In this document: one piece after another, positions 10,253 through 64,000 of the stretch
Layout of the letters: every line of letters starts with the position of its first letter
Position numbering within the stretch: the first letter of the stretch is position 1
Translations under genes and position numbers: made by a program
Source: Giardia intestinalis
Taxonomy: Eukaryota
Length of the DNA: 64,000 bases
Strand: one strand, 5' to 3'
Assembly: GCA_000002435.2 (NCBI GenBank)
Contig: CM018791.1
Notes under the pieces: model-generated
Databases searched by the model: none
The model's input: only the letters and a program-made list of their open reading frames with translations
Told to the model about the DNA's origin: nothing

Positions 10253-12610
10253 CTAAGAAAGGATACCTATATATCTAGTCAGATCGTGCTTAAGCGCCAG
10301 CTCGAGGGGAGAGATCCCAGGGCCCTCATGATACGAGGAATTTGTGTATACAGAGCTTTCTAGTGGGGCCAGGTAGTGTACTATATCGTCATAGCCTTGT
10401 ATTATGGCATACATTAGAGCGGTAAGCCCCTGCATGCTGATGAATGTTGCCTCTACACTCAGGAGCTTAACTGCTACCAGATCCCCTCTGTATGCCGCCT
10501 CCATGAGTGCAGTCTTACCACTAGGGTTGATGACCCTCTTATAAATATTACGCATGACAAATATGGCAACGTGGGCACCGGTCTCCACAGCCTTAAACCA
10601 CACAGGACTCAAGACACGCTTCTGCTTGGGATCGTCCAAGTGCTGTAAGAGTCCGCTATCAACAGCATAATGCAAAAGCCTCTCGATCCCAAGGTTATTA
10701 ACTTCTAAGCATCTAAATACCGAAATTATTCCATTGTTGTCATAGGGAAATGGTATATTTAAGTGGCCGGCTAGGACCTCCAAGAGTGCAGTGGCTGAGT
10801 CATAAGACTGCCGAGAGACGGCATAATCGAGAGCAGTCATGTTGCTACTGTCAATAGGCATGAGTGCTTCTATGATCTCCACAGGAGCACTCGTATGCTC
10901 AACGGAGTCTGGCTGTGGTGCCAATAATGCCTTCACATAGTGTACATCGTTAAAGATACATGCAAGCATCAAGGGTGTGACACCATCTTCATCTCTCGAA
11001 GAGCTATATTTATGTAAGTAAGTATTAAACATTTTATCATCTTTAACAGCAATGGCATAGTGCAGAGACGTGAAGCCTCTCGATCTTCCAAGATTCCTTT
11101 CTTTTTCCATTAAAAGCCGACATATCTCGCGCCTCCCTTGAAGAGCAGCAATCTTAAATCCAAATCTTCCACTCTTAGATACAAGTCCTCCATCGTATAT
11201 GGCCAACACCTTGCAGGCATCTTCACAGAAATCTTTCTGATCAAGTGCATACATCAGTGCACTGTTCCCGCTTCTATCCTGGTATCCGCCCTCAAACGGA
11301 GCCAGGTACCTCACCATCTCATAGCAGTAGTTGATGACGGCAAGGATCAATGCTGTCATATTCCCGGTTAGCTGACCTGAGGTTGAATTGAGATTGGCAC
11401 TACTACTCAGCAGTCTTACTGTCATACCTCTTCCTACAGCGGCTGTTCTGGTTCCCAAAAGAGATAGTTGGACGGAGCTACTCAGCTGCGAGCCGGATAG
11501 ATCAGAGTACGTGGATGTATCTTTACCAACAAACCCTGCTTCCCGTTCCAACAGAAGTTGTGCAAGGTCAAGGTTTTGATTATCTATAGCATGCATCAGT
11601 GCAGTCCATCCATCAGAATCCTGACAGCACGCTTCGGCACTTATCAATAGGCGGCACCCATCAGAGATAGGGAGGTAATTACAGGCCGCATGCATCAGCG
11701 CTGTCCGCCCCTTCAGATTTGCTCTCTTTAGGAATCTAAGTTGGCTATGCACAAGATCAGGGTCTCCTACCTCAAGAGCATCGAAGAGAGGAGTGTTCTC
11801 CATTGCGTCCCGTTGTATCACGGAGTCTGTTGAGAAATTATCCCAATTGAACGATCCTGCTTCAATCAGGGAGCTTCTGATGTGGTCCCCCATGTTCTCC
11901 AGAGCGCATATGGCTGCAAAGCTTGGTCGTGATAACTCTTGACCAACCATTTTCTTAAGAAGGATGGGGAGATGAGAAGTGCACATAGCGTTCTCGGGAC
12001 AGTATCGAGAAATAAGATCCTGGATAAATCTTCCTAGACGTGCTACGCTTTGCTGCTCGGACTTTATAGGATTAGATTCTAAAACGCATTCCTTTAAGGG
12101 CACGTATGCCGGCCTGTAAAGAACGTGGCCGTACGAGTCATAGTAAATTTGTTCTTCACTGAATGTAAAGAAGGCGTGGAGCTGCATGCCATTGTACTGA
12201 TAATTGTGTACCAGTTTCACGATCGCTAGCGAAACCCCTACTATTAGCTTCCAAAGCTCAAGCTCTGTCAAAATTGTACCCTGGAACTCCTGTTCTTCCA
12301 AGATTTGATCTAATCTTATACCATGACAATACTGCTCGAAAGAGTACACTTGCCTCTTGCCTCTATCGAACACTAAAGAATAGGACGTCAAGATGCCGTC
12401 TCCGTTGAGCTTTGAACCCTGAATGGATGAGCTCATGGAGTCCAGTCCTGTAGGGAGCGGTTTCAGATACCCCACAAGGTTGTGCGCTAAGAGGACTGCA
12501 GATCCTCCTGCGACAGCTGTGTTATCCAAAGAAGACAGTAAAGCAAGCTGGGTGCTGTCTATCATAAACTGTTTTTTAGAACAATCGGAATCTATAATAG
12601 TGCAACGCAA
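10253..12610 (-). CDS. ankyrin-repeat protein (Protein 21.1 family) with a degenerate NEK-like kinase remnant at the N-terminus
   Basis: There are at least 11 ANK repeats (GRTALMHAACN..., GWTALMHAIDNQNLDLAQLLLE, GNSALMYALDQKDF..., GVTPLMLACIFNDVHYVKALL, GKTALMEAAYRGDLVAVKLL, GLTALMYAIIQGYDDIVHYLAP, etc.). The first roughly 200 aa (EQYCHGIRLDQIL...ELWKLIVGVSLAIVKLVHN...) look like a kinase C-lobe lacking the HRD and DFG motifs. The ATG lies only 3 bp from the stop codon of the upstream gene. Confidence 0.75.
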   Translation of the reverse strand: MRCTIIDSDCSKKQFMIDSTQLALLSSLDNTAVAGGSAVLLAHNLVGYLKPLPTGLDSMSSSIQGSKLNGDGILTSYSLVFDRGKRQVYSFEQYCHGIRLDQILEEQEFQGTILTELELWKLIVGVSLAIVKLVHNYQYNGMQLHAFFTFSEEQIYYDSYGHVLYRPAYVPLKECVLESNPIKSEQQSVARLGRFIQDLISRYCPENAMCTSHLPILLKKMVGQELSRPSFAAICALENMGDHIRSSLIEAGSFNWDNFSTDSVIQRDAMENTPLFDALEVGDPDLVHSQLRFLKRANLKGRTALMHAACNYLPISDGCRLLISAEACCQDSDGWTALMHAIDNQNLDLAQLLLEREAGFVGKDTSTYSDLSGSQLSSSVQLSLLGTRTAAVGRGMTVRLLSSSANLNSTSGQLTGNMTALILAVINYCYEMVRYLAPFEGGYQDRSGNSALMYALDQKDFCEDACKVLAIYDGGLVSKSGRFGFKIAALQGRREICRLLMEKERNLGRSRGFTSLHYAIAVKDDKMFNTYLHKYSSSRDEDGVTPLMLACIFNDVHYVKALLAPQPDSVEHTSAPVEIIEALMPIDSSNMTALDYAVSRQSYDSATALLEVLAGHLNIPFPYDNNGIISVFRCLEVNNLGIERLLHYAVDSGLLQHLDDPKQKRVLSPVWFKAVETGAHVAIFVMRNIYKRVINPSGKTALMEAAYRGDLVAVKLLSVEATFISMQGLTALMYAIIQGYDDIVHYLAPLESSVYTNSSYHEGPGISPLELALKHDLTRYIGILS

Positions 12611-31871: not shown

Positions 31872-32000
31872 GGGTGTTGAGTGAAGGATGCTCTGTCAAA
31901 TCGTCTAATCAAGGTATTGACCTCAGACAGGGATAACAAGCCATCATTGCATTTTTTACGTTTCACTTCGATTTATTCACTTACTTGTGGTGGAATGCCT

Positions 32001-50200: not shown

Positions 50201-50332
50201 TGGGAAGACCTCTCGAAGTCGTCGCTTTAACTTCAAAGCCGCGTGGATGTCGCTGAAAATCATGACGACCGGCGAGTCGTCCACTATCACCGTTATGGAT
50301 GCTACCTTCGCCTTGTGCTCATTTGGGATCAT
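47261..50332 (-). CDS. hypothetical protein (1023 aa) with a long Q/A/P/S-rich low-complexity centre
   Basis: It is a long ORF. It has a structured N-terminus (about 90 aa), a central region of about 450 aa that is low-complexity and rich in Gln, Ala, Pro, Gly and Ser, and a structured C-terminal third. Confidence 0.55.
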   Translation of the reverse strand: MIPNEHKAKVASITVIVDDSPVVMIFSDIHAALKLKRRLREVFPDTVFTKNIENEMLEKQAKKVAGLIIQRRLFISPTLSDEDLRIEIQGKINPGTFMKRSATPVAVGAPWPSSYESALSEKIKEAEKHVEKFASASQPQAPGVDMRSKIVYSAPAGSAAFAKSEQQQPQPQVFGRRSDSHVNQFLTPANLATAAGASQVQGDIPVHAASIIPIPIHNGVTNPLTSANIFGPNAVNPGPNIIALGNVPLAQGSTNNMAASTSMASGQGPQIRVLTIPQLQAGAVTNQQGGYATALSNRILAHQPILGANYQGLAAYATTGSQPAPYVAALQQNAQQIAQLIPGSAVLTQLAAPGAMVGKVASQAPNVMPLSVQPAVHPAVAPVSISSATMVGQSKSQLDSADLSIPNSATITDHQADQTRASDPPLSSMNTSYYSQPPMSDNSEIIFTIDSDECTDYPNTQEACCVNSHNILSMNDIPMAEQIGSSSSPLLELITKWSRMIRQSRPASPMSVTQQEGEFYQYYKHLNTDNAPHPSVKPTAPKLWAPADQLSLFISVYDQIFTGTPDNIKQAWEGHKRAFLDSSVTTTKTAVHAIENNTIDVHDLSSSSSPSSPSPSPVHSSFLPQSSSSLSSSSKTVENAMEAPATQPIDDIPQGAANPVAGLTSQLKEARESEPSAFSKHIFATVPTNPNMSALQAGQELLNIGFPDKQKFFSDLLTQFPSTVSVSELAQINPNLSSLLSNSVATLGVDQRQKQDLGVQEATAQMLTHLNFVNGKSSDIDNLLRNCQPPLTYLRAPNELPLKTLFTAPTSNWGSSMPTIDCLFPPNKNIQVDVILLLYLLSFGGAVDEVKSDNDDLNFLPSEASSQILKEYTRKRCVELQHKLLTLYHQEDFLELKAGTPSLYSRGNIRTTVTNYVTCAQNTNLNLHLSLQTDNNPGKAVLSLPCVLLDSEHLALILPRTKEASIGKDKEIDRLLESITFMNGKLTRREFYSRGRASQMIPSISSITLGSGTDSDLKKHVRL

Positions 50333-50709
50333 TCTTACCCTTGAAATTTTTTAATTGGAAGAAAGCTCAGGTTATACGAGAATAAGTATTTTGATATTGA
50401 ATGCTACATGAGAATAAGGTAAGGTCAGTTCCTCCAGAGATATATCTCTATCTCAGGATAACAACGTGAGCTTTTTCAAAGTACTCCCATAATTCACTGC
50501 AATTTGAACTACAAGTTAACGAGGCCAGCACGAGATCTTGTGACGCTGCTGATGGGTCGTGACTTCTAGTTACTGGTAACCCTGCTGGCACAATGTCTTT
50601 ATAGAACGGTGTCACAAAAAGTGTTCAATTGTTTAACTGCTTAGTTGTCTAGGCATTTGAACACCTCCTCAGCACCATCCTAAGGACTTTCTTATGTTTG
50701 CTATGATGT

Positions 50710-51057
50710 CTACGCCGCTTGGACTTCGTAATTTTCAACGACAGGAATTATGGGTTTGAGATGGGCAACTGTAAGGGTTGTGCCAAAACGCCTGCAAGTG
50801 TCCAGGATAGTCTGACATGGCACAATGGCATCTCCAGTCGAGTTGATAAGCACTGCTTCGAGCTGGGGTATTTCAAACGCCCGAGCTGCTAGGCGAATGA
50901 CCTTTTCGGTGGATGAGGCTTCTGGGATGTTAAATACATGGTACGTGTAGAAGGGGTCAAAACCCTTATATATCTTGACTTGAATCATACGCTTCTGGGC
51001 CAGATATGCCTCCTTGAGCTCGTCAGAAACGGGTATTGTCTGGCTAATCATCTTCAC
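50710..51057 (-). CDS. small hypothetical protein (115 aa), possible beta-grasp fold
   Basis: It is a short ORF between two long genes. The alternating hydrophobic pattern (VKIYKGFDPFYTYHVFNIP...LTVAHLKPIIPV) may indicate a ubiquitin-like fold. This is a weak call. Confidence 0.35.
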   Translation of the reverse strand: MKMISQTIPVSDELKEAYLAQKRMIQVKIYKGFDPFYTYHVFNIPEASSTEKVIRLAARAFEIPQLEAVLINSTGDAIVPCQTILDTCRRFGTTLTVAHLKPIIPVVENYEVQAA

Positions 51058-51241
51058 TCTTTTGTTTAATCTTGAAGTTTTAATCCTGAACCAGCCTTTG
51101 AACAGAGATTGAAGTAGTATGTGTTATTACCAATAGTTGTTACCAATAGTTGTGTTGCCGCCTCTACCTCGTATCCACTCCAGCTCACTCTCAGCGCAGA
51201 CTAATAGCTGTGTACTTCGCGAAAAATTAAATTTTAGGTAA

Positions 51242-52906
51242 ATGGATACCTCCTACATCCACTCAACACCTTCTATGACAGCTGGGCTTCTCCCGGCATT
51301 CATATATCCTCCTATTACTCCGCGTGTGGCCCCTACGCGCGAAATAAACCATCTTCTGGACCAGTCCCATGCCCTGGCCTCAAGGTGCGAAATCCCGCAA
51401 TCAATCAAACTTTTTCTAAAAGCCGAGCAATTGTGGAACGAGCATGGAAATATTAGTAAGGAAGATCATGTTTATCTTCTCGTTTATCGTGGATTTCTAT
51501 ATAGTTTATATTACCAGACCGCAGAAGATAAAGTTGGACGCGCTGGCCTAGAGTTGGCTGTGGTGTGTTATATGGAGGCAATTGATCTTGCAGAGTCAAT
51601 CTTGCCCCACACAGCTGACACGGCACTCCCAAGGATGTATCTTGCTCTAGAGCTCTACTATGCACGCTGCTACGAGAAGGCTACAGTCCTGCTCAAACAG
51701 GCTGAAGCAATAGTGCGCAATGCTGAGGGTCCTCGATCTCTTTTAGTCCATATGTGCTCATACAACATACTGGCCTGCTATGTAGTCATGCTGCAGTACA
51801 GTAACGAGTACCGTGCAGGCTTAATCTCCACTCTCGCTGCTGATCAACTCCATGGGAGCGACACACCTTTTCCAATAGATCATCGTTTAATCAAGGAGCT
51901 AGGCAGTCTTGGCGTGCAGTCGCTCCAAGGCCTGGGCCAACAGTATAGGTACTTAGACAACATCATTTCAAATGCACAGCTGCTAGAGCCACCAGAGCAC
52001 AAGAAGCTCGATGAGCTACTTGCTATGGGTCTTGGCCAGCAGGGAGAGCTGTTCCGGAAGGACGTTCTGGAGAAGATCAAAGGCAACCCACAACTATATG
52101 AAGGATGCAATAGTCTAATCATGTTTGACTTTTTGCAGAGTAGCGAGTTTTTGCAGGCAGGATCTCTGGGAATATGCCAGCCGGAAGCTCTCCTTGGCAA
52201 AGAGTTACTGGACAGCAAAACTGGAAGCCCTGGAGCAAATGCATCGTTACTTCTCCAAACTACTGCAAACAATGGACCCCGCATCAGTTCACTTGCTAGA
52301 GATCTCACTGAATCACGGTACAGACAGGAGCAAGAGCGCTCTATACCAGCTACACATGCCTCGTCCCCTTGCTTAATTAATCAACAAGTTATGAATGCAG
52401 GTACTTATTCACTCTCAACGCCATCAAGTGGTGTACCCAATGCCCGCTGTCCAGCAAACCCCGCTGGCGACCTTGTTGGCATAACCCCGCCTGGAACAAG
52501 AGCCATGAACAGCAACCATAGTAATCCAGACATGGAGGCCTCCATATCCTACAAACTAAACTTCCCGGTAGAGACCTTGGCATATACAATGGATGAAGAC
52601 GACCTGTACGCCGTTATAACAGAATTGGGTTCGATTGAAAAGTCTATGCGCCAGATGGTTGGAAGCACACATTATTATACTACAGCGGTCCAGCGTCTGC
52701 GGCGTATATGTGAAGGGCTCCAAGAGGCAACCTTGCTAAGAAACGACAAAGACGTGATGGCTAGGGGGCTCGATGCATTCAAGCACAAGTTCCGATACTT
52801 ATCATCAGTTGAGGTAAAGCCAAAAATGCTGGGCTCTGGTGGCAAGCCAAAGAAAGAGAAGGGCGCCAAAGGTAAGAAAGGTAGCAAAGGCAAGGTAAGG
52901 AAATGA
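51242..52906 (+). CDS. hypothetical protein (554 aa) with a TPR-like N-terminus and a Lys/Gly-rich C-terminal tail
   Basis: It is a long ORF whose C-terminus is GSGGKPKKEKGAKGKKGSKGKVRK. Confidence 0.55.
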   Translation: MDTSYIHSTPSMTAGLLPAFIYPPITPRVAPTREINHLLDQSHALASRCEIPQSIKLFLKAEQLWNEHGNISKEDHVYLLVYRGFLYSLYYQTAEDKVGRAGLELAVVCYMEAIDLAESILPHTADTALPRMYLALELYYARCYEKATVLLKQAEAIVRNAEGPRSLLVHMCSYNILACYVVMLQYSNEYRAGLISTLAADQLHGSDTPFPIDHRLIKELGSLGVQSLQGLGQQYRYLDNIISNAQLLEPPEHKKLDELLAMGLGQQGELFRKDVLEKIKGNPQLYEGCNSLIMFDFLQSSEFLQAGSLGICQPEALLGKELLDSKTGSPGANASLLLQTTANNGPRISSLARDLTESRYRQEQERSIPATHASSPCLINQQVMNAGTYSLSTPSSGVPNARCPANPAGDLVGITPPGTRAMNSNHSNPDMEASISYKLNFPVETLAYTMDEDDLYAVITELGSIEKSMRQMVGSTHYYTTAVQRLRRICEGLQEATLLRNDKDVMARGLDAFKHKFRYLSSVEVKPKMLGSGGKPKKEKGAKGKKGSKGKVRK

Positions 52907-52914
52907 GATGCGGC

Positions 52915-53175
52915 CTACACACTAATCAGCCGTGTATGCACGTACACCTGAGACCTATCTGTGATTCCACACTCGTGAATAGTCATTTCTCGCTCCAATT
53001 CATAGCCATTATATGTGAGGACCATGAATTCTGGCTCACAGCAATAGAAGCGTTGAAGCATCGTCTTCAGTTCGAAGATGGTATGATTGGGGTCAACATC
53101 CACAGCTGCTTTCACGGCATTGTCATCTGTCGCAAATACCCACATTTTGGTCTTTTCTAATTTTAAAAATGTCAT
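52915..53175 (-). CDS. small ubiquitin-like (beta-grasp) domain protein (86 aa)
   Basis: MWVFATDDNAVKAAVDVDPNHTIFELKTMLQRFYCCEPEFMVLTYNGYELEREMTIHECGITDRSQVYVH follows the ubiquitin-fold pattern (I.V....V.V....TI.ELK..I......P..Q.LIY.G..L.D..TL.E.GI...S.I.L). It has no C-terminal GG. Confidence 0.5.
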   Translation of the reverse strand: MTFLKLEKTKMWVFATDDNAVKAAVDVDPNHTIFELKTMLQRFYCCEPEFMVLTYNGYELEREMTIHECGITDRSQVYVHTRLISV

Positions 53176-53969
53176 TTACACACGTTGATCCCCCTGCTGG
53201 TACCCGCGGCTATGAGATCGAGCGAGCGGCAATTAATATCGTTGCACTAAAAACAGATAGAAGGGGTGCTTTATTTTTGACTGATGAGTCGCTTATCTAT
53301 CACGGTAATAACTTCAGCTTCCATGTTCCTCTCCGTGATATAACACTCCACGAAGCGTCAGCAGGGATCTTTGAGTCGCCGTTCATTAAGTTGACCTTCC
53401 AAATCCCCAGTAAAGATATGGCGGGTACGATCAAGTTCAATTTCAAGAGTAGATCCTTTGATACCTTTGTATCCGTGTTTCCTGTCATGTATGCAAAAGC
53501 TCGTCAAGAGGCGCTTCAAGCACCAAAGCCGCCAGCAGCACCGAATTATGCTATGGGTAACGCTGATACCATCAGAGAGAGAGAAGCTCCTAATGCTTTG
53601 CCGCCGCCACCAAGTAATCCACCAAGTAATGTGCCCCCATACCCTGGGCTCCCTGCTAACATAGACACTATGGAGACACTTAGAAGTTTGACGAAGGTAC
53701 GACCATATTCACATCTGCAGCAACAGCAACAGCAACAACAGCAGCAAGTGCAGCAGCAACCATATGTAACAACTGTCACCGCACTAGAAGCACCAGTAGC
53801 AATAATTGAACAGGAAAACCGCCCTCTTTTAGAAGAGGACAGCCAGGCCTTCCGTACAGTGTATGAATCTACGTGGGGAGTAGTGTACAACAAGGATTTC
53901 GACCCGAAAAATGCTTCAAAGGAGGATCAGCTGGGAATAACACAGTGTCTGCGCCCGGCCATGGACTAG
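53169..53969 (+). CDS. hypothetical protein (266 aa) with a polyglutamine tract
   Basis: The ORF has an N-terminal PH/GRAM-like beta-rich region (a weak call), a Pro-rich segment and a HLQQQQQQQQQQVQQQ tract. Confidence 0.5.
   Translation: MSFTHVDPPAGTRGYEIERAAINIVALKTDRRGALFLTDESLIYHGNNFSFHVPLRDITLHEASAGIFESPFIKLTFQIPSKDMAGTIKFNFKSRSFDTFVSVFPVMYAKARQEALQAPKPPAAPNYAMGNADTIREREAPNALPPPPSNPPSNVPPYPGLPANIDTMETLRSLTKVRPYSHLQQQQQQQQQQVQQQPYVTTVTALEAPVAIIEQENRPLLEEDSQAFRTVYESTWGVVYNKDFDPKNASKEDQLGITQCLRPAMD
53718..53762 (+). repeat. CAG/CAA trinucleotide microsatellite encoding polyQ
   Basis: The sequence (CAGCAA)n CAACAGCAGCAAGTGCAGCAGCAA is visible directly within the CDS at 53169..53969. Confidence 0.8.
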
Positions 53970-54000
53970 TTACCCACTGCCATCGATAATCTGGCAGGAG

Positions 54001-54786
54001 CTATTGCTTGTCGGATGGTATGTACGCCAAGAAAAAGTAATTGTGAGCGTCCTCAAAGCGGCACGCTATCTCTGTTTTGAATAGCACCATAGACGTTTTG
54101 GAAGTGAACTTCTTTGGGTCAAACGAGGTGTTGTGCGCAAACAGCGGGACACAACCATGGCGGAGGCAGTAGCGGGTGACGGCCTCCATTATGTCTTTGT
54201 CGTATCCGTGCCGCCTATACCCATGGTCAAAGGTCACGAGCACTTCAACACATGGTGTATCTGGAGAGAGCTCAATTAGTGCTGGAGTAATGTCCTTGCC
54301 AGCGAGTGGGGCTCCTGACCCAGCAGTGCTCTCGGATAGAGGCGTGTCCGGTGGCTTAGAAAAGACGGCGCTATTAGCAACTTCTTGAGGTGGGTCACAA
54401 TTGGAGAACGGCACCTCCGAGAGAACAAGACCCATGGGGTGGAAGGAAAGGATACCTACCGGCTCAAAGGTCTCTATCTCCGCAATCATGAAGAGGAACG
54501 TAAGCGATATGGACTTGTAGGAAGAAAGAACAGTTAAGAAAAATTCGTTAAGAAGTTCTGGCGTATTCTTGTCAGATACCGGGAACCCTATGCGCCGTCG
54601 AAGATATTTGCTTCGGAATGTGCTGATAAATGTGCATAGGTCTTGAGATATTAGAGGCCGAACAAACACGTGGTTGGCTAGTATAACGCTGGGAAATGGC
54701 ATAGACATTTTCTCCGCGTTCTGCATACTCCTGTAGGACACCGTTATGTCGTATCGCCCGTCATATTCTTGTCCATCTTTAAGCAT
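54001..54786 (-). CDS. GNAT-family N-acetyltransferase-like protein
   Basis: A motif-A-like segment is present: VLVTFDHGYRRHGYDKDIMEAVTRYCLRHGC. This matches the V.V...YRRxGxG..L...A pattern. The ORF track starts at 54816. I prefer the Met 10 codons downstream (ATG at 54786), which leaves an AT-rich promoter in the gap with the divergent neighbour. Confidence 0.45.
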   Translation of the reverse strand: MLKDGQEYDGRYDITVSYRSMQNAEKMSMPFPSVILANHVFVRPLISQDLCTFISTFRSKYLRRRIGFPVSDKNTPELLNEFFLTVLSSYKSISLTFLFMIAEIETFEPVGILSFHPMGLVLSEVPFSNCDPPQEVANSAVFSKPPDTPLSESTAGSGAPLAGKDITPALIELSPDTPCVEVLVTFDHGYRRHGYDKDIMEAVTRYCLRHGCVPLFAHNTSFDPKKFTSKTSMVLFKTEIACRFEDAHNYFFLAYIPSDKQ

Positions 54787-54818
54787 TTTAAATTTAAAAG
54801 GAAAGACTTCGAGCACGA
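54787..54818. promoter_or_regulatory. candidate bidirectional AT-rich initiator region
   Basis: The tract TTTAAATTTAAAAGG lies in the roughly 30 bp between divergent start codons at 54786(-) and 54819(+). Giardia promoters are known to be short and AT-rich and to sit immediately upstream of the ATG. Confidence 0.35.
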
Positions 54819-55631
54819 TTGCATAGGATGCTATTGTCCCCCGCTGCCTTTGACATTGCCCAGGTTCAGCGTTTGGGTAGGCTCTTTGTCAACGTTCAGC
54901 GGCGTGTTCAGCAGACAGCCACAGGTCTCACTACAGCGAACAGCAATATGCCGTATCTTTTAATTATGAACCTGCTTGATACCTTACGAAAAAGCTGCAC
55001 CACGGGTGAGTGTCATTACTATGTTGTTCCGTTGTATTCTTCAAACATGAACAGCAGAGTGACGTTTCTTTCCTGCAACAACGCTATCCATTCTGACACA
55101 TCTGATGAGTCCATCCGACACACACTAACCCTCCACTTATTCGGGTCTCAAGCGTGCTCCTCAGGATTTTTCCATACCGGCCTTCTAGTTCTAGAAGCGG
55201 ACCCTATTGACAGCACCTTCTACACAGAAGTTGATGTCTTAGCATCCACTGTTTTGCATGCGGATTCAGTAATTTATATAGCGGATTTGCCTATGAGTGC
55301 CCGCTTTGCGTCTAGTCAGTTAGAGGAAGACTTTTGTGTTCGCTCTATGCTGGGCAAAGTCCCTGGTGTGCTGGCGCTGGAAGGCCATGAGAAGCTGTCT
55401 ATTAAGGAGCTACGCGACGCATTCAAGGATATAGTAGAAGATGCCGTTGCAGATATTCTTTCAGGATTGCTCGAGTATGAACCTGAATCCTCTAACAAGA
55501 CTACACAGGCTCTTACGTCCTTTGTACTAATTTATGTACCAGTCACTTGCACCATCTTGGATGAGTGCTACTTAAAAAGTATGTCTCTGCATTTGCATAA
55601 GCTTTCAGAGCTATTAGCTTTTACTACCTAA
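54819..55631 (+). CDS. hypothetical protein (270 aa)
   Basis: It is an ORF divergent from the GNAT-like gene. No domain was recognised. Confidence 0.4.
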   Translation: MHRMLLSPAAFDIAQVQRLGRLFVNVQRRVQQTATGLTTANSNMPYLLIMNLLDTLRKSCTTGECHYYVVPLYSSNMNSRVTFLSCNNAIHSDTSDESIRHTLTLHLFGSQACSSGFFHTGLLVLEADPIDSTFYTEVDVLASTVLHADSVIYIADLPMSARFASSQLEEDFCVRSMLGKVPGVLALEGHEKLSIKELRDAFKDIVEDAVADILSGLLEYEPESSNKTTQALTSFVLIYVPVTCTILDECYLKSMSLHLHKLSELLAFTT

Positions 55632-56213
55632 CTCACGATTTGTTCCATCAACCGATCGCTTCTAGTTCTTAATGTTAATAAGTTCCTATTTACAAATTAG
55701 AACCGAGAGTCGTATAAACAAATTATCTTGTTACCTAGCTGTGTTTAGCGGTACTACACTTAGGGACTATCATCTACAGACAGCGCAGATCTGCTCCAGC
55801 AGGTCTTCCATGCCATCTTCAGCAGATGAGGCGGCTACAGTGAGAGGCTTGACGAGGCTAATCAAACAGGTCTTGAGAGTCAATCCCCTGGAGTAGTTGA
55901 GAGAGGAAGAGCCATTGGCCACCTGAGATTCAAAAGGCCTTGAGGCCATAGGTAGGATGAGCAACCGTACGGCAGTAGTGACATATGTATCAGCTAAGCA
56001 CAACTGCCTATCTGGAGACTCTAACACACAGGACACGAGGTGAGCCCAGAGGAGAGATCCTTGACGTTCCCAGATTCACCCTCGGGGAACTCTATGAGAG
56101 GCTGGATAGCGTGCTTAGCGAAGGCATCATGGGCATAGTCTGATCCCTCAAAGGCTATCCGAGCCTTGCCGTGGAGGAGATCCAGCTCGACGGTCTGGGT
56201 CAGCACGGTGTAG

Positions 56214-58761
56214 ATGCCATCAAGCTCGAGCTGGCCGCTCTTCTTAACCTCCCACCCAGACGTTCTCAGACACCACCAGGTGCTTACGGACGAGGGCTTC
56301 ACCTACATTGTCATAGACCGCCACGACAGTACCCTCGAGCGCCCCCTCGCCAAGCACAAACGAGGGAGGATCCCCGTCCCTATCACTATGATCCTCTCTG
56401 TCATGAAGCAGGTCGCTGCCGCCCTCGCCTACCTCCACGGCCTCAGTGGGGCAAACACTAGAGGCCTCGTCCACTGCGACCTCAGGCCTGCCAACGTCCT
56501 TATCAGCGCAGATGGTGAGTACTTCATCATCGCTGGCCTCGAACTCTGCAAGGACGCCCTGTGGAGTGAGAGCACCATTGCAGGCATGGCAGCGTACATG
56601 GCCCCCGAGGTGCTCCTCCACAACGAGCCCAGCCCCGCCTCTGACGTGTGGAGCCTCGGGGTCATCGTCTACGAGATGGCCACTCTAAGGAAACCGGACT
56701 TCCTGAAAGGTAAGGAGCCAGCAGAGGTCTTCGTCGATGAGTGGAGGCCGGACCTGAGCGGTGTCACTGATGGCTTCATACAGAATGTTCTGGAGAGGAT
56801 CTTTGTATTGGAGCCAGAGAGGAGGCCGACAGCCAGTGAGCTGCATGAGACACTCACTGCGGCTGACATCCCAGTTGGTGAGCTGGGGGGTCAGTGCGTG
56901 ATGCTGAAGTACAAGTGCGGATCCTTGGAGGCTGCGCTGAATGGCGCTAACGCCAGGATCGCGCTGCTGGAAGAGGAGGTTAAGACTAAATCCACTAAGA
57001 TCGACGCACTTGAAGACCAAAGTAAGGAGCACCTAGTCATGATTAAGGCACTGGAGAATAGGCTTGCACAGTTCGGTGACAGGATGAACACGGCTGGCCC
57101 TCAGTCCAGCCTCTTTTTGTTGCCCAGGCTGATGCGTGCTGCGCATACGAACGGCATGGAGACCGTCCGGATGCTGCTTGAAGAAAGACTCGGTGTTGGT
57201 CAGCGTGACGCACAGGGGATGACGGCCCTCATGCACGCGGGCCAGCAGGGGCATGTTGATCCCGTCGAATTGCTTGTTGGGGAGGAGAATGGCCTCCGGG
57301 ACAAGAGCGGCTGGACTGCGCTCATGCACGCCGTACACAACAACCATCCTGAGGTAGCCAAGATTATTGCCCCCTACAAGCATAGGAAGAGGAATAGGGA
57401 CAGCCGGACTGCTCTGATGATGGCCGCAGAAGAGGAGTATGCAGAGATTGTTTCCCTTCTGGCCCCACATAAGACTGACAGTGAACGCAACACAAGCTTG
57501 ATGAATGCTGCAACTAACTCGCCTGCAAAAACTGTTGAGGTGATGGTTGGGCATGAATATGGTTTTGGAGACTCGCATGGCCGTGCCGCTTTGATAATAG
57601 CAGCGTAGGAGGGAAATCTTAAGACGCTCAGAGCCCTCATTGAGTACGAGAAGGGGCTGAAGGATAATAATGGTTGCACTGCCCTCGTCCACGCAGTTCG
57701 AGTTGGTCACCGGGATGTTGCAAAGCTTCTCATGATACAAGAGAAGGACGCCGCTGGCTGGACAATGCCCATGTACACCGCAGCACTCGAAGACACGGAC
57801 ATGGTGTCCCAACACCTCGATGAAAAGGATCAGAGGGACAAGCAAGGCCAGACAGCCCTCATCATCGCTGCCCAGAACGGAAGGGGCGAGACGGTGAAGC
57901 TTCTGATGAAGCATGAGAATGGTGTCCCTGGCTTGATAAGCCTTATCTGCTCAGCGTGTCTTGGCGACGTCTATGCAGTCAAGAGCAGTATCCACGAGAA
58001 GGGGCATGCAGACATCATTGGGATGACGGCATTCATGTGGGCTGCATACCAGGGCCATCAGGGAGCAGTGGAGATCCTCCTCGAACACAAGAAAGGGATG
58101 GAGGACAAGGACGGGAACACAGCCTCCGCGTACACCCTCATGAACAAGCATACAAGCATAGCCATATTTCTTCGCGAGCATGAGGCTCCCTGTGGACCCC
58201 TTTCATGTGTGCATCCTTCACTGAAGAAATTGGCATGGTGAGGAAGCACTTTTCTGAAACGAAAAAAGAAACAATGATGATAAGACTGTGCTAACAACGC
58301 TGCAAAAACAAGATATGAAGATGTTATGGAATTCGTCGATTCAATCAATAACAAGGGTGTCATACGCTCATGTGAGCCGCCGACAGAAATGGCCCAGCAG
58401 CTGTGAAGGAGCTTGCTTCGCTTCAGGCAGGCAGAAGGCGTCATGATACCTCAATATAGACAACTGGATTATATACAAGGGAACTACGCTGATAAGAGCA
58501 GCGGCGTGTGACCATACAGAAGTGACGAGATTGCTCCTGGAGAAGGAGGGAAGTGTGCAGAATAATCGCAGTAAGACAATCCTCATGCTAACAATACGTA
58601 ACGATCAGATAGAGTGCGCGAGACTCCTTGCAGAGAAGGAGAGTGATATAAGTAAGGGCACACTCTTAGGCATAGCCAGACAGAGAGGCAATGAAGGCCC
58701 TCTTCTTGGAGTAGCCAAAGTAAACAGTGAATATCTCTACATCAGATCTCCACACAGGTAA
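56214..58761 (+). pseudogene. decayed NEK-like kinase/ankyrin-repeat gene (C-lobe-only kinase, in-frame TAG, frameshift)
   Basis: The reading frame opens at kinase beta4-beta5 and the hinge (LFLTSHPDVLRHHQVLTDEGFTYIVIDRHD). It retains HCDLRPAN but has AGLEL in place of DFG. There is a stop codon directly upstream in the same frame, so there is no N-lobe. The ankyrin array is interrupted by a TAG at 57606..57608 (...GRAALIIAA*EGNLKTLRALIEYE..., probably CAG to TAG). It continues in the same frame to 58241. ANK-like repeats then resume in a +1 frame (TTLIRAAACDHTEVTRLLLEKEG..., 58440..58761). Confidence 0.6.
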
Positions 58762-58999
58762 TAGCCTCTGCCTTTGAAGACACATGCACAGATACTACCA
58801 TCTTCATATCATGATGACTGTAGCGCAGATCTCGGCAGTAGTAGCCGCTACTCCATGCTCCAGGGTTCTGTGCTGCTGGGGTCTATCTTGGCTTTGTTTA
58901 AAGATCTCACAAGCAAGCTTCCCTCAGTTCCTAGCCATCCCCAGAGATGAAGGGTAATCGCGGATAGCATAGTGAAAGATTTCCCTCTATCAGTACTCC

Positions 59000-61900
59000 A
59001 GAGCCTGGCGCCCCCTTCGATCGCTCAACGGGCGTGTGCTCAGGCCGAATGTGCTTCCAGAAGTGCTCGCACGCCAGTCTGTCCAGGCTCCGACCTTCTC
59101 ACGGCCTCGTGTGGTCCCTAGCGGCGACCTCCTCTTTGGTCCTGCTTCATAGCGGGCGAGGGCGGGTCTTTGCGTTCGTTTTACAATGCATCCATCTGTC
59201 ACGACGGCAGTAACCATTGAGGCTCTGGCTCCATTGATGGTCCTGATGCAGCGAGAGTCTATCCTGGCAATATGGAGTGGGCGGGGCTGTGGGTCTGTGG
59301 CTCGCTATGAGGGGGCGTCGTTATTTATCTTTGGCCGTTGCTTCTTCTATGAACGGGTAGGCCCTCTATCGCCGTGGCCCTTTGGGACTGATGATGGTTG
59401 CTTCTGTTGCCCCTCGGTGTCTGATCAGTCCGTGGTTCTGGGCCAGCGCTCCTTCTCAGTCGCAGTCATTCTGGTTCCATAGTGGGTCCGCTTGGTGGTT
59501 GGAAATAGGCTGACAGGGGGCAGTTGCTGGGTACTCATCAGCTGCCACATGGACAGCAAGAGCCAGGCAGAACTCTCGGTGCCCGCTGGTGCCATGGACT
59601 GGACTGAATGGGTGGTGTCCGCCTGTGCCCCTGTCTTCTCGCTGTGGTGTCTATCTGGTCGCTGGATAGCACCCACGCCCACCGCCTTGCACTTGTGACG
59701 GGCTCTGCTCTGGTCGCCGGGCTGGTCTGATCTCCAGCTTGCGTTGCACTCCCCGAGACACGGAGGCAACGATTGCACGGGGCCCCTGGTTGTCCCTCTG
59801 CACCAGTGGAGGAGAGCCCTTGTCTGTTGTCTACGATCAGCCCATCCTCAGAGAGCCTGGCCTGGGCGGGCTGCCGTGCGGCTTCTGAGTGTGCCCCAGG
59901 CGAGTTCAGCAGCACAGCCCTAGAGGTGGCCGGGTGGAGTGAATCACTCGAGGGATGCACGTAAGGAGCGCACAGGTCCGGGGGCGCCCGAACAGGCTCA
60001 GCCCTCGCACCGGCTCCTCCCCGGTCGCCTCAGTCGCGGCGCCACCGAGAAGACGCGTGCCCCGTCCGACGACCCGGCACACGGACCGACGGCTGGCGGA
60101 TCGCATGGCAAGGTGGAATAAAAAGTTTGGAACATTGGCGCTCGCGTGGATCGGGATGCAGCATTCTCCAGGCTGGGAGGCTGTGCGCGCGGGCATTACC
60201 TCTAGCATGTTCCTCACCACGGCCCCAGGCTGATGGGCGGCCGAGGCCTTGTCAGCGTCACGCACGCCTCTTGCCGGCATTGGGCCGCCCGGGATCGTAC
60301 ATAGGCGGGGCTGCAGAGGCCTTCCGCGGCTCCTGCGGGCAGTCGCCTGCTGCGGAGAGCACGCCCAGCTTGGGAGCTCCTCGGGATCACCGTGCAGGTC
60401 ATCGAGACCGGTTCGACGGGCCCCACGTTAAAGGAGGCGCACGGGCCGGCGAGCGTGCCGTCTTTGCAGGCAGGCTCTCGCTGGCCGGGGTGGCGGGGCT
60501 CTCCTGTAGCCCTCCACCGGGAACGCCCTATCTACTGGCAGCGGTTCCACGGTTGCAACGCTACAGGGGCGGGCTGCAGCTCTTCCGCAGGATCTCGTCG
60601 GACAGGCAGTTGGCGTAATCTCACGTGCACTCACCAGGGGCTCCTCGCCCTCGTAGAATAGCACCCCGCACGCCCCAAAGCCAAATCGAAATGCAGCAGG
60701 TGCAGTCGACTCTTCTCGGGTTGTGGCGCTGATCCAATCAGACGCCGCGGCACGCCCCGAGCAGGCTTCATCCAGCAGCGGGTGCTCTAGCCGCGCCCCT
60801 GAGGCAAGTCTGCTTCTGACCCCGTCCCTGTGCCGACCCCAGCGAGCCCCCGACGGCGCCGGAGAAGGAGCGCCTTGCGGAGCCCCTTACTGGCCCCTCG
60901 GTGCAGGAGGATCCCCGGATTACCGATTTGCGTGCAGCAGCGGGCTGGGATGAAGCCGTGGGCACCGATGCCGGGGCACTAGCCACGGAGACAGCAGCGT
61001 TAGTAGCCAGACGAACCTCTATTTCACCCTATGGTTTTTGGGGTCCCAAGTTAGCGCCCCCGGAGCAGCACCGGCTGTACACTGTTCACTGCACTCGGTC
61101 GGCCGGATAGTGTGGCAGCTACGGCTACTCTAATTACGGCGCTTGATGTGTTTACTGCTGGGGAGGCGTTGCTCTCCGCTCTACGGGGTGGCAGGATTGC
61201 TCTCACGTGCACGGTAGTACCAGTGGACGCCCCTCAGCTGCCGGGCCGGAGCGGCTCTTGGATGGGTGATTCTATCCTCCTCCGTGCAGGCGCCCCTCGG
61301 GGCCCAGTAGACGTGCGTTGCTGTGTCCCGCAGCCTGGATCCTTGCCTTCAGACGCCAGCACGGAACTCTCTAAACTTGTCCTCCTGCGGCGTCCTATGC
61401 TGCTATGCGCACTTCGTTTTCAGTAAGCCCTTAAGGTCGCAGTCCAGGACTACCGGCCCCCGCATCATCGGATATGGTTGCTGACTGCGGCCGCTTACGC
61501 AGTCGCAGCTGGTTCCGCACTGGCCCTGTATCGGTAGCCTCGGGCCTGCATCGCCGGTGTGCGGCCCACTTCGCTCTGCGGGTGTACCACGTATAGTTAC
61601 CGGCCTCGGATTTGGTGCACCGCTGGGGCAGATAATAGCAGCAGCAATCCTGCAGCCCCGTGTGGTCGTCTGGCAGTGGATGCGAAGGTTTGCAGGTGGG
61701 AGTGGAGTCTTGGGGCTGCTCTTATCCACGTCACCGGGCGCCGTGGTCAAGGGCTCTGAAGGCATACCCAGCCCTCCGCTGGACGAGGATCGTTGGGCTG
61801 CTCAGAGCCCTGCAAGCTGCGTCCAGGCTGGTATTAGGTGGCCCAATGGCGTAGCAGTGGGAGCTGTGAGGCGAGACCTGCCGTGCACCGAGCGTCGGAC

Positions 61901-63100
61901 CATTGCTACACCGACTCCCCAAAGGGACACACTCAGCCCTGAGCCGGATGCCCACTTGTACTGTGGAATGAGCGCCTTGCATGCTTGCCGTGAGCAGCTA
62001 TCCAAGGCTCGAGGTTAGCGGGCGGGCCCCAGCTATCGCCCTCCATTATCTCAGCCGGCTAGCAAAGAACACTTCTCGAGGCAGCTCCCGACTGGAGGAC
62101 GAGTGGATCTCAGCCGCCGGCACAGAACTCCCCTTCTCCGGGGACGTGATCCTCGGGCCTGTGTGGCTCACGATCTCCATCCCTCCTTTGGGGCGGGCTG
62201 ACTGTAGCCCTTCCGTATCATGGCTAGTGCTCTCTGAAGCTCTGATGACGCGCGGCTGTGTCTTACACGTGTCGTTACAGTGGGACCCGCGCCTGCCCGC
62301 CCTTGCGTCGCTTACGGTGTAACCAGGGGCGACCGGGCACGCTCCTATCGGCACATGGCGCCCTCCGTTGTGCTGGCTCCTGACGGCAGGCCACTCTACC
62401 GGGTCTGGTACTGCAAGGACCACCTATAGCGGGGGCAGGTGCGTCTACGCATCACCTCTGCGCTGTAGACAGTAGACGGCACGCCATCAGTTAGCACAAG
62501 ATCCGGTCCGCGTCTTCTCCGGCTCTGTATCCATCAGGCTGTGCTACCATTACTATAGCCGCCCTATGACAGAACTAGGCCTTGCTTCGCAGAAATCCAA
62601 AAACAAGGGTCGCAGATCGGGCGGCACGGGTCGCCCTCGGGCTAATCCACCGCTGCAGCACGGCCACTGCGGGCACGTCCAGGTGGCCATGGAGCTGGGG
62701 GCGGCCTCGGTCGAGGATCATCGCTCGACGCGCCTCTCCTGCAGCGGCCAGGGCGTCCCGGCCGGTCTCGGGCGAGGAGGACGCTATTGAGGCACGGAGA
62801 AGTACGGTGGCCCACAGGGTTCGGCGGGGGGCCGGATCGCGCAGAGCTGGTCGAGGAGACTAGAGCGCCAGCCAGGCCGGGGCGCCGCCGGGGGAGCCTG
62901 GCGCGAATCCCGATCACGGCGGGAACACCCTCGCACCGATTGGGGACAACACAAGGGCAGGCCACGTAGGAGGCCGTCTTGATTCTCCGCTTTACCCCAG
63001 GACGCATCTGAGCTGCCCACTCGCGCTCTGGTCTGCAGGCAATCAGGGTCTACGGCCGGCACCGGATTACGCTCTTTGGGTCTCCGACATAAATCTAACA
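59000..63100. other. about 4.1 kb GC-rich (roughly 65% GC), ORF-free block of unknown nature
   Basis: There is an abrupt compositional shift from the roughly 50% GC of the flanks. All six frames hold only short Arg/Pro/Ala/Gly-rich ORFs of 170 aa or less, as expected by chance in GC-rich DNA. Degenerate internal repeats are visible, for example GGCTGCAGAGGCCTTCCGCGG and GGCTGCAGCTCTTCCGCAGG. No universal rRNA motifs were found. Confidence 0.5.
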
Positions 63101-63178
63101 AATGCATTATTTTATCAACCAAAAAATGATCACTGGCGAAATTATGTTCGCACACCGGCATAATCCAAAAAGAATTTA
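63101..63178 (+). promoter_or_regulatory. AT-rich upstream/initiator region of the VSP gene
   Basis: The composition switches sharply from GC-rich to AT-rich (AAATCTAACAAATGCATTATTTTATCAACCAAAAAATGATCACTGGCGAAATTATG...AAAAAGAATTTA) directly 5' of the ATG at 63179. Confidence 0.3.
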
Positions 63179-64000
63179 ATGCTATTGACAGCCTTCTGTA
63201 TTATGGCGAGCGTTCTCGCGGCAACCTGTACCGTTGAGGCCAGCACACGAGATTGCGCAGAGAGTAAGTGTGAAATGGTTGGCGGCACTGAAGTTTGTAC
63301 GGAATGTAAATATGCTGGGAATGTCCCAATTAACGGAGCATGTAAGCAAAAAGGTGACAGCGCCGTTACCACTGCTGGTTGCAAAAAGGCAAATGGAACT
63401 GGATTAGCAGAAGACAAGGTATGTGAACGGTGTGACGGTGCCTATTTCCTCTATAAGGGTGGATGTTACGGTGTAGATAACGAACCTGGACAGAAACTCT
63501 GCACCAAGGCCGCGGAGGGAGCATGCACAGAGGCGGCTCCGGGGTACTTTGTTCCACCAAACGTAGCTGGATCAGATCAGTCTGTGATAGCATGTAACTA
63601 CACTATCAGTGTACCAGTTCTTGATGGTAGATCATATATGGGAGTCGCTCACTGTACACTATGTGACTCTCCCAAAATAGCAAGTGATCCTACCCCTAAG
63701 CCTGCAGTGTGCACAGCCTGCGAGGATGGGTACTTCCTCGGAGCAGCTGGTGATAAAGAGAGCAAATGCATATTGTGCGGAGATACATCTGGCAGTACAT
63801 GGAAGGGCGTTGATGGGTGCCTGAAGTGCACTGCATCGGGAAAAGCAGACACCCCTGCCACATGCACTGAGTGCCAAGAAGGCAAGTACCTGAAAGGTGG
63901 CGATCCCACTAGTTGTATTCTCAGAAACGCATGCACCGGAACACACTTCCCCAACGACAATGTAGAGAACAAGAAGAAATGCCTTCCTTGTGGGGAGAAT
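63179..64000 (+). CDS. variant-specific surface protein / high-cysteine membrane protein (VSP/HCMP), partial; continues beyond the window end
   Basis: This frame runs off the window edge and is not in the ORF track. My own translation gives a signal peptide, MLLTAFCIMASVLAATCTVEA. It is followed by a Cys-rich ectodomain with many CxxC pairs (CTECKYAGN..CERCDGAYFLYKGGCYG...CTACEDGYFLG...CILCGD...CLKCTASG...CTECQEGKYLKGG...). The GGCY and GYFL motifs are hallmarks of Giardia VSPs. Confidence 0.85.
   Translation, partial: MLLTAFCIMASVLAATCTVEASTRDCAESKCEMVGGTEVCTECKYAGNVPINGACKQKGDSAVTTAGCKKANGTGLAEDKVCERCDGAYFLYKGGCYGVDNEPGQKLCTKAAEGACTEAAPGYFVPPNVAGSDQSVIACNYTISVPVLDGRSYMGVAHCTLCDSPKIASDPTPKPAVCTACEDGYFLGAAGDKESKCILCGDTSGSTWKGVDGCLKCTASGKADTPATCTECQEGKYLKGGDPTSCILRNACTGTHFPNDNVENKKKCLPCGEN

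What the first reader, a model, noticed from the sequence alone, without database searches (positions are those of the whole stretch)
56214..58761. NEK-ankyrin gene in decay: kinase C-lobe only, one in-frame TAG inside a perfect ANK repeat, then a frameshifted ANK tail
The sequence shows that the frame opens at kinase beta4-beta5 (HPDVLRHH...TYIVIDRHD) with a stop codon immediately 5'. No glycine loop or VAIK exists upstream in any frame. A tempting VDAIKLEL in another frame overlaps the same nucleotides and I rejected it. HRD survives as HCDLRPAN, and DFG is AGLEL.

The TAG at 57606..57608 interrupts an otherwise perfect ANK consensus: AALIIAA*EGNLKTLRALI, against the later TALIIAAQNGRGETVKLL. 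A single CAG-to-TAG change would explain it. After 58241, ANK repeats continue in the +1 frame.

This points to a pseudogene, which fits a VSP-adjacent subtelomere-like region. Alternatively it could be stop-codon readthrough or a strain polymorphism, which would be interesting for the expanded, mostly kinase-dead NEK family in Giardia.
Basis: seen in the sequence. Interest (0 to 1): 0.5.

Follow-up and report, generated by a model that had tools for sequence, protein, structure and literature searches.

The report
Known dead Giardia NEK-ankyrin kinase gene
This is an ordinary, already catalogued pseudogene of the fast-turnover Nek-GL4 kinase family in Giardia strain WB: a whole NEK-ankyrin gene, N-lobe included, broken by three stop codons and six frameshifts, while the gene at the same position in strain P15 is intact.

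Summary
The 464-aa ORF (56214..57608), the TAG at 57606..57608, HCD, the degenerate DFG and the frameshifted ankyrin tail are all present. One claim is wrong: the kinase N-lobe exists. It lies at 55985..56248 in another frame, the one holding the rejected "VDAIKLEL". It carries an in-frame TGA (56141) and joins the ORF across a 2-nt deletion at 56247|56248.

The tail has five 1-nt deletions and a TGA between 58191 and 58431. Independent short-read assemblies match the window exactly across every lesion, so these are not assembly errors.

At the syntenic position:
- P15 (assemblage E) has an intact 818-aa NEK-ankyrin gene, with CAG at the TAG site and TAC at the TGA site.
- DH (assemblage AII) also has CAG and TAC, but is broken elsewhere.
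- It shares only tail lesions with WB.
- A probable assemblage-B isolate has no NEK gene there.

Segment 56330..57210 is nearly identical to another WB pseudogene, GL50803_114495, which suggests gene conversion.

Manning et al. 2011 already list this sequence as Nek-GL4 GK106 (GL50803_137743, "dead Nek") and GK091 ("pseudogene"). The verdict is a known pseudogene of low interest.

The parts
55985..56143 (+). N-terminal remnant. ATG at 55985, then 'MYQLSTTAYLETL...FTLGELYERLDSVLSEGIMGIV' (the Gly-loop equivalent), ending at the in-frame TGA at 56141..56143.
   Evidence: The TGA replaces TAC (Tyr) found in DH and P15. Logan contigs L001 and L002 match the window here without a base substitution.
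56144..56247 (+). Rest of the N-lobe in the same frame. It holds beta3 'LAVEEI' (catalytic Lys changed to Glu, codon 56174..56176 GAG) and alpha-C 'VDAIKLELAALLN'. It ends at a 2-nt deletion between 56247 and 56248 that shifts into the frame of the annotated ORF.
   Evidence: P15 has AAG (Lys) and DH has GGG at the Lys codon. The 2-nt deletion is WB-specific; DH has a different 1-nt deletion a few bases upstream.
56214..57608 (+). Annotated 464-aa ORF ('Kinase, NEK', KAE8302957.1 / GL50803_137743). It covers the kinase from beta4 onward, a coiled coil and four ankyrin repeats. Its first 12 residues are an out-of-frame reading of the alpha-C region.
   Evidence: Manning 2011 Additional file 1.
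56330..57210 (+). Segment 87-100% identical per 30-residue window (mostly 96-100%) at protein level to the WB pseudogene GK118 (GL50803_114495, P0003). The neighbouring stretches are only 29-63% identical to it. This is a probable gene-conversion tract.
   Evidence: Identity profile. Logan contigs break at 56202-56416 and resume at 57211. WB-DH DNA identity is depressed here, 74-95% per 150-nt window.
57606..57608 (+). In-frame TAG inside an ankyrin repeat. It is a WB-lineage C-to-T change of CAG (Gln).
   Evidence: DH and P15 both have CAG. Six Logan contigs are 100% identical to the window here.
57609..58191 (+). Ankyrin repeats continuing in the ORF frame. This stretch includes most of the separately annotated 169-aa 'Ankyrin repeat protein 1' (57732..58241, KAE8302958.1).
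58192..58446 (+). Heavily decayed tail. It has 1-nt deletions at 58191|58192, in the A-run at about 58262-58267, at 58297|58298, at 58363|58364 and at 58430|58431, plus an in-frame TGA at 58373..58375.
   Evidence: Frameshift-aware alignments to P0036, P0096, P0038 and the P15 gene; DNA alignment. Shared with DH: the deletions at about 58262, 58297 and 58430, and the TGA at 58373. WB-specific: the deletions at 58191 and 58363.
58447..58761 (+). Last ankyrin repeats and the typical C-terminal end ('...ECARLLAEKESDISKGTLLGIARQRGNE...'), running to the TAA at 58759..58761.
   Evidence: This stretch is 51% identical to the C-terminus of Protein 21.1 (P0096).

Best explanation
The locus 55985..58761 is a non-functional relic (an unprocessed pseudogene) of a full-length Nek-GL4 kinase-ankyrin gene in Giardia intestinalis WB. 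It stands at its ancestral chromosomal position.

**Shown.** The complete gene architecture is still readable in the DNA: N-lobe, C-lobe, coiled coil and about 13 or more ankyrin repeats. It is interrupted by three in-frame stops (TGA 56141, TAG 57606, TGA 58373) and six frameshifts. The catalytic Lys and the DFG Asp are lost.

**Inferred history.**
1. The 3' tail was disabled first, in the ancestor of sub-assemblages AI and AII. Three 1-nt deletions and the TGA at 58373 are shared by WB and DH.
2. The body of the gene then decayed independently in each lineage. WB gained TGA 56141, the 2-nt deletion, TAG 57606 and two more 1-nt deletions. DH gained its own frameshifts and a deletion of about 93 nt.
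3. The C-lobe and coiled-coil part (about 56330..57210) was exchanged with paralogous GL4 copies by ectopic gene conversion.
4. The decayed gene was duplicated with its lesions, because the WB annotation holds two identical copies of both ORF fragments.

The annotated 464-aa 'Kinase, NEK' and 169-aa 'Ankyrin repeat protein 1' are simply the two longest ORFs left between lesions.
For: - **Homology through all lesions.** tblastn and frameshift-aware alignments are colinear with paralogues and with the 818-aa P15 gene over window 56045..58426.
- **Synteny.** The P15 gene lies directly downstream of the orthologue of the 267-aa neighbour gene, in the same orientation. DH has the same neighbours.
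- **Lesions are real.** Logan contigs from independent SRA runs match the window across every lesion. L001 is 100% identical over 43169..56416, L002 is 99.985% identical over 43167..56300 (two gap openings), and L006-L011 are 100% identical over 57211..58635-59429.
- **Ancestral states.** TAG corresponds to CAG, and TGA 56141 to TAC, in both DH and P15.
- **Independent decay.** DH carries different disabling lesions in the body and shares only tail lesions with WB.
- **Selection.** dN/dS between WB and P15 is 0.11-0.24 in the body and 0.43 in the tail. This fits long past constraint followed by recent loss, with the tail relaxed earlier.
- **Literature.** Manning et al. 2011 (PMC3218828) report 30 WB kinase pseudogenes, 29 of them in GL4. 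They list this exact sequence as GK091 'Pseudogene' and GK106 'Dead Nek - missing K72, D184'.
- **Pfam.** Joining the two frames restores a near full-length Pkinase match, profile positions 9-258 of 263.
Against: - A 464-aa ORF survives, is annotated as a gene, and could be translated.
- No expression or proteomic data could be examined here. At least one other GL4 pseudogene (114495_mod) has SAGE tags.
- dS between WB and P15 is near saturation (0.8-1.6), so the dN/dS values are rough.
- The direction of gene conversion is not established, because no paralogue DNA was available.
Confidence: 0.93

Rival explanations
1. The locus is a truncated but functional gene. The 464-aa ORF (C-lobe, coiled coil and four ankyrin repeats) and perhaps the 169-aa ankyrin ORF are expressed as kinase-dead scaffold proteins, as proposed for many inactive Giardia Neks.
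For: - The ORF is long and is annotated in both WB annotations.
- Manning 2011 classed GK106 as a 'Dead Nek' rather than a pseudogene.
- About 70% of Giardia Neks are catalytically dead yet conserved.
- Two identical copies are retained.
Against: - The ORF starts with 12 out-of-frame residues and lacks half of the kinase fold.
- The DH allele fragments the same region into different ORFs of 338 and 180 aa, with further frameshifts, so no particular truncated product is conserved.
- Read directly from the sequence, there is no AT-rich initiator-like sequence before the ATG at 56214, whose upstream context is GGTGTAG.
- WB-DH divergence in the kinase part is far above that of the flanking genes.
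Confidence: 0.05
2. The TAG is decoded by programmed stop-codon readthrough or recoding, yielding a longer NEK-ankyrin protein.
For: - Homology continues in frame after the TAG for about 580 nt.
- From my own knowledge, not tested here: some other diplomonads read TAR as Gln, and the ancestral codon here was CAG (Gln).
Against: - The stop is not conserved. DH and P15 have CAG.
- The same gene has two further in-frame TGAs and six frameshifts, which readthrough cannot rescue.
- The ORF upstream of the TAG already lacks its N-lobe.
- From my own knowledge: Giardia uses the standard genetic code.
Confidence: 0.01
3. The stops and frameshifts are sequencing or assembly artefacts, for example long-read homopolymer errors or collapse of paralogues.
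For: - One tail frameshift lies in an A-run (about 58262-58267).
- The central segment is repeated in the genome.
Against: - Independent short-read assemblies from different SRA runs match the window across all lesions (three contigs upstream, two of them at 100%, and six downstream at 100%).
- The 2007 and 2020 WB annotations give identical ORF products.
- Several lesions are shared with the independently assembled DH genome.
Confidence: 0.01

Closest known systems
Giardia Nek-GL4 pseudogenes of strain WB (Manning et al. 2011, Genome Biol 12:R66): entries GK106/GL50803_137743 and GK091/GL50803_115444
   Same: The sequence is identical. The 464-aa ORF is GK106. [quoted passage not shown]
   Different: Nothing essential differs. 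This analysis adds four things: the lesion-by-lesion comparison with the syntenic DH and P15 genes, read-level confirmation, the conversion tract shared with GK118, and the mirrored order of the two copies in the 2020 annotation.
GK118 / GL50803_114495 (XP_001709905.1), another WB Nek-GL4 pseudogene with SAGE expression
   Same: Over window 56330..57210 the protein sequences are 87-100% identical per 30-residue window, mostly 96-100%. Both have 'IIAGLELCKD' in place of DFG, and both are frameshifted in the ankyrin region.
   Different: The N-lobe is only 40-63% identical, and GK118 lies at a different locus. GK118 retains Lys in 'LAVKEI'.
P15 (assemblage E) 818-aa NEK-ankyrin gene on ACVC01000099.1 (L018 11673-14129)
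   Same: It is the syntenic orthologue: same upstream neighbours, same orientation, and a colinear alignment over 806 residues. It is the closest relative in the N-lobe (70.6%) and in the ankyrin part (36-80% per 30-residue window, mostly 56-80%).
   Different: Its reading frame is intact. It keeps Lys in 'LAVKEI', the Asp of HCD and 'DLG'. It has CAG and TAC where WB has TAG and TGA. It ends at a TAA that corresponds to about window 58430.

Membership tests
Eukaryotic protein kinase domain (Pfam PF00069) | A significant match to the Pkinase profile across both lobes. | tested here: met
   The ORF alone matches profile positions 55-258 of 263 (E = 8.7e-24). With the two frames joined, the match covers positions 9-258 (E = 8.5e-27). 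This is met at the DNA level only, because the reading frame is broken.
Eukaryotic protein kinase domain (Pfam PF00069) | The catalytic residues Lys72 (VAIK), Asp166 (HRD) and Asp184 (DFG). | tested here: not met
   'LAVEEI' has Lys changed to Glu. 'HCD' keeps its Asp. 'GLE' replaces DFG, so that Asp is lost. Manning 2011 records 'missing K72, D184'.
Giardia Nek-GL4 subfamily | Clusters with GL4 Neks, and has the kinase, coiled-coil and ankyrin architecture. | tested here: met
   The best hits are Giardia NEK proteins with this architecture. The exact sequence is classified as Nek-GL4 in Manning 2011 Additional file 1.
Pseudogene (unprocessed) | Homology to a functional gene continues through disabling stops and frameshifts. 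| tested here: met
   There are three in-frame stops and six frameshifts relative to the intact P15 orthologue.
Pseudogene (unprocessed) | The lesions are real rather than sequencing errors. | tested here: met
   Nine independent Logan contigs match the window: eight at 100% and one (L002) at 99.985% with two gap openings.
Pseudogene (unprocessed) | The lesions are not conserved, and related lineages decay independently. | tested here: met
   DH has CAG and TAC at the two WB stop sites but carries its own frameshifts and a deletion. Only tail lesions are shared.
Pseudogene (unprocessed) | No protein product is made. | not testable with these tools
   No proteomic or Ribo-seq data were available.
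Programmed stop-codon readthrough / recoding site | The stop codon and the downstream frame are conserved among orthologues, and the ORF is otherwise intact. | tested here: not met
   The TAG is WB-specific, with CAG in DH and P15. The gene also has additional stops and frameshifts.
Ankyrin repeat proteins (Pfam PF12796) | A significant match to the Ank_2 profile. | tested here: met
   Ank_2 matches the 464-aa ORF with E = 1.9e-25. Ank families are also on record for the 169-aa ORF.

The most novel reading that the evidence does not exclude
The two lesion-bearing copies of this pseudogene form the arms of a large inverted duplication that brackets one gene, probably the VSP starting at 63179. 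Transcription through such a palindrome could yield double-stranded RNA that feeds the RNAi-like silencing of VSP genes. Alternatively, the arms could act as substrates for the recombination that reshuffles the GL4 and VSP repertoires. Only the mirrored order of the protein accessions supports the inverted arrangement. The second copy lies outside the window and was not seen.
Probability: 0.04. Interest if true: 0.55.

Novelty: already known. Interest (0 to 1): 0.1.

Why it matters
It matters little beyond annotation hygiene. The current WB reference still presents two fragments of one dead gene, twice over, as 'Kinase, NEK' and 'Ankyrin repeat protein 1'. They should be merged and flagged as a pseudogene.

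The locus is a clean, dated example of what Manning et al. described for the GL4 subfamily, namely rampant duplication, pseudogenisation and exchange between copies. The state differs by lineage:
- P15: intact.
- A probable assemblage-B isolate: absent.
- AI and AII: decayed independently after a shared truncation of the tail.

Tried and rejected
- **Look-ups that found nothing.** Exact-sequence look-ups of P0001 and P0003, and of an ORF in the GC-rich block, were not on record.
- **Ubiquitin neighbour.** Its look-up returned only WB-like contigs.
- **Second copy in the window.** None was found by self-BLAST. The twin copy must lie beyond 64000.
- **GC-rich block 59-63 kb.**
  - No Rfam match even at E <= 1.
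  - No tandem repeats.
  - No similarity to NEK, ANK or VSP proteins.
  - Stops in all six frames.
- **Splicing.** Joining the N-lobe by splicing was rejected. The N-lobe is contiguous with the C-lobe, there is no extra sequence relative to P15 at the junction, and the TGA would remain.
- **My own early error.** I first thought the ATG start was lost. This was corrected: the ATG at 55985 is shared with DH and used in Manning's GK091.
- **Literature.** A search for GL50803_137743 gave no main-text hit. One paper mentions GL_137743 and GL_137742 together in a figure legend.

Full report
**Source.** The window is Giardia intestinalis (duodenalis) WB. Rfam finds the Giardia snoRNA GlsR6. The 464-aa ORF of the finding is 100% identical to 'Kinase, NEK [Giardia duodenalis]' on a 1,973,847-bp contig. 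The upstream neighbour is GL50803_00104984.

**Observation.**
- The ORF 56214..57608 (464 aa) is there, with a TAG at 56211..56213 just 5' of it.
- HCDLRPAN, 'AGLEL' in place of DFG, the TAG at 57606..57608 inside 'AALIIAA*EGNLKTLRALI', and the later 'TALIIAAQNGRGETVKLL' are all as described.
- Pfam places the ORF on Pkinase profile positions 55-258 of 263, plus ankyrin repeats. 'C-lobe only' is therefore true of the ORF.

It is not true of the locus.
- tblastn with paralogues shows that residues 2-77 (the N-lobe) are encoded at 56027..56254 in the neighbouring frame, directly abutting the ORF.
- That frame reads 'MYQLSTTAYLETLTHRTRGEPRGEILDVPRFTLGELYERLDSVLSEGIMGIV*SLKGYPSLAVEEIQLDGLGQHGVDAIKLELAALLN'.
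- It contains the Gly-loop equivalent, the VAIK equivalent 'LAVEEI' (Lys changed to Glu) and the alpha-C region.
- Joining the frames extends the Pkinase match to profile positions 9-258.

**Lesions.** I wrote a frameshift-aware alignment and ran it against the intact syntenic P15 gene and against C-terminal ankyrin tails of Protein 21.1 and NEK proteins. It gives these lesions:
- TGA at 56141..56143 (TAC in P15).
- A 2-nt deletion at 56247|56248.
- TAG at 57606..57608 (CAG in P15).
- 1-nt deletions at 58191|58192, about 58262-58267 (an A-run), 58297|58298, 58363|58364 and 58430|58431.
- TGA at 58373..58375.

The last frame runs to a TAA at 58759..58761 and ends with the family's usual C-terminus, '...LLAEKE...LLGIARQRG...'.

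**Not an artefact.** Logan short-read assemblies of independent SRA runs match the window.
- L001 is 100% identical over 43169..56416 and L003 over 43429..56202. L002 covers 43167..56300 at 99.985%, with no substitutions and two gap openings.
- L006-L011 are 100% identical over 57211..58635-59429.
- Together these cover every lesion.
- Contigs consistently break between about 56200-56416 and 57211, which marks a repeated segment.

I found orthologues of the 267-aa upstream neighbour and fetched their loci.
- **P15 (assemblage E).** An intact 818-aa NEK-ankyrin gene follows the neighbour in the same orientation. It is colinear with window 56045..58426, at 70.6% identity in the N-lobe.
- **Probable assemblage-B isolate (SRR3177763).** Its neighbour protein is 68% identical to WB's. 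No NEK gene lies at this position; the next gene starts 122 bp after the neighbour.
- **DH (assemblage AII, AHGT01000018.1, and an identical ENA contig).** The locus is present but split into ORFs of 338 and 180 aa.

The three-way comparison shows:
- DH has CAG where WB has TAG, and TAC where WB has TGA 56141.
- DH has its own 1-nt deletion near the end of the N-lobe, further frameshifts at P15 residues 389, 463, 657, 688 and 740, and a deletion of about 93 nt.
- WB and DH share only tail lesions: about 58262, 58297, 58430 and the TGA at 58373.

I infer that the tail was disabled in the common ancestor of AI and AII. The body decayed independently afterwards.

dN/dS between WB and P15 is 0.11 in the N-lobe, 0.15 in the central part, 0.24 in the unique ankyrin part and 0.43 in the tail. 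dS is near saturation, so these values are rough. They fit long past constraint followed by recent loss.

**Mosaic structure.**
- Protein identity to the WB paralogue P0003 jumps from 40-63% in the N-lobe to 87-100% per 30-residue window (mostly 96-100%) between about 56330 and 57210, then falls again.
- P0003 is GL50803_114495 (GK118), itself a GL4 pseudogene with SAGE tags.
- In the N-lobe and the ankyrin part, the closest relative is instead the P15 syntenic gene.
- WB-DH DNA identity is 97-99% in the flanking genes and 92-96% in the ankyrin part of the pseudogene. It drops to 74-88% across most of the kinase part.
- I read these patterns as ectopic gene conversion among GL4 copies. The direction is undetermined.

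**Copy number and annotation.**
- The 464-aa product carries two GenBank protein accessions from the chromosome-scale WB assembly (the 1,973,847-bp contig), KAE8302957.1 and KAE8302961.1.
- The 169-aa ORF 57732..58241 ('Ankyrin repeat protein 1') carries KAE8302958.1 and KAE8302960.1.
- The upstream neighbour is KAE8302956.1.
- The locus is therefore annotated as two genes and exists twice. The order NEK, ANK, one gene, ANK, NEK suggests an inverted duplication.
- The second copy is outside the window.

**Literature.** Manning et al. 2011 (PMC3218828) report 30 WB kinase pseudogenes, 29 of them in the GL4 subfamily, which shows 'rampant gene duplication and pseudogenization'. Their Additional file 1 lists two entries that match this locus:
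- The exact 464-aa sequence appears as GK106 / GL50803_137743, 'Dead Nek - missing K72, D184'.

The finding is therefore already known.

**Verdict.** This is a known unprocessed pseudogene (confidence 0.93).
- Readthrough is excluded in practice by the non-conserved stop and the many other lesions.
- Assembly error is excluded by independent reads.
- A translated truncated product cannot be ruled out without expression data. It is unlikely, because DH fragments the region differently.
- Interest is low.

Noticed in passing
window 59000..63000: A block of about 4 kb at 64% GC with stop codons in all six frames. It has no Rfam match even at E <= 1, no tandem repeats, and no similarity to NEK, ANK or VSP proteins. 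This is unusually long non-coding DNA for the compact Giardia genome, and its nature is unexplained.
   Followed up: partly
window 58761..64000 compared with L018 14889-19564 and L019 10917-15632: There is a synteny break directly after the pseudogene. In P15 and in the probable assemblage-B isolate, the next genes are a 215/216-aa gene, a 193-aa gene, a kinesin and ribosomal protein L1. None of them is found anywhere in the window.
   Followed up: partly
window 63179..64000 (+), running off the window end: A Cys-rich open frame (10% Cys, 8 CXXC motifs) matches Pfam VSP with E = 4.9e-15, so a variant-specific surface protein gene starts here. It is probably the 'one gene in between' the two pseudogene copies.
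   Followed up: partly
beyond the window; accessions KAE8302957-KAE8302961: Both ORF fragments of the pseudogene exist twice in WB, with identical products and in mirrored accession order (NEK, ANK, X, ANK, NEK). This suggests a large inverted duplication around one gene. Logan contigs covering the tail end at 59429, which may be the inner arm boundary.
   Followed up: partly
L020 (SRR29338406), 1-1479: The 3' 847 nt of this contig are 97.9% identical to window 57715..58561, with no gaps. Across 58170..58480 it carries the same indel pattern as WB, so it shares the tail frameshifts. The 5' 590 nt are unrelated and non-coding. It is either a truncated extra copy of the tail in another isolate or a chimeric contig.
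   Followed up: partly
L019 (SRR3177763) 10795-10917: In this isolate, whose neighbour protein is 68% identical to WB's (probably assemblage B), no NEK gene lies at the syntenic position. Only 122 bp separate the two flanking genes. The gene was therefore gained in the A/E lineage or lost in this one.
   Followed up: no
window 57239..57317 compared with L021 about 8983-8996: DH lacks about 93 nt, close to one ankyrin repeat unit, that are present in WB and P15.
   Followed up: no
window 57033..57914 (-) and 56021..56302 (-): Long antisense ORFs of 293 aa and 93 aa overlap the pseudogene. Gene callers on Logan contigs pick such antisense ORFs as genes (for example 93-aa and 85-aa calls). They are most likely by-products of codon bias rather than genes.
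   Followed up: no
window 31890..31948 (-): The C/D-box snoRNA GlsR6 is the only Rfam family hit in the window, at 89.5 bits.
   Followed up: no
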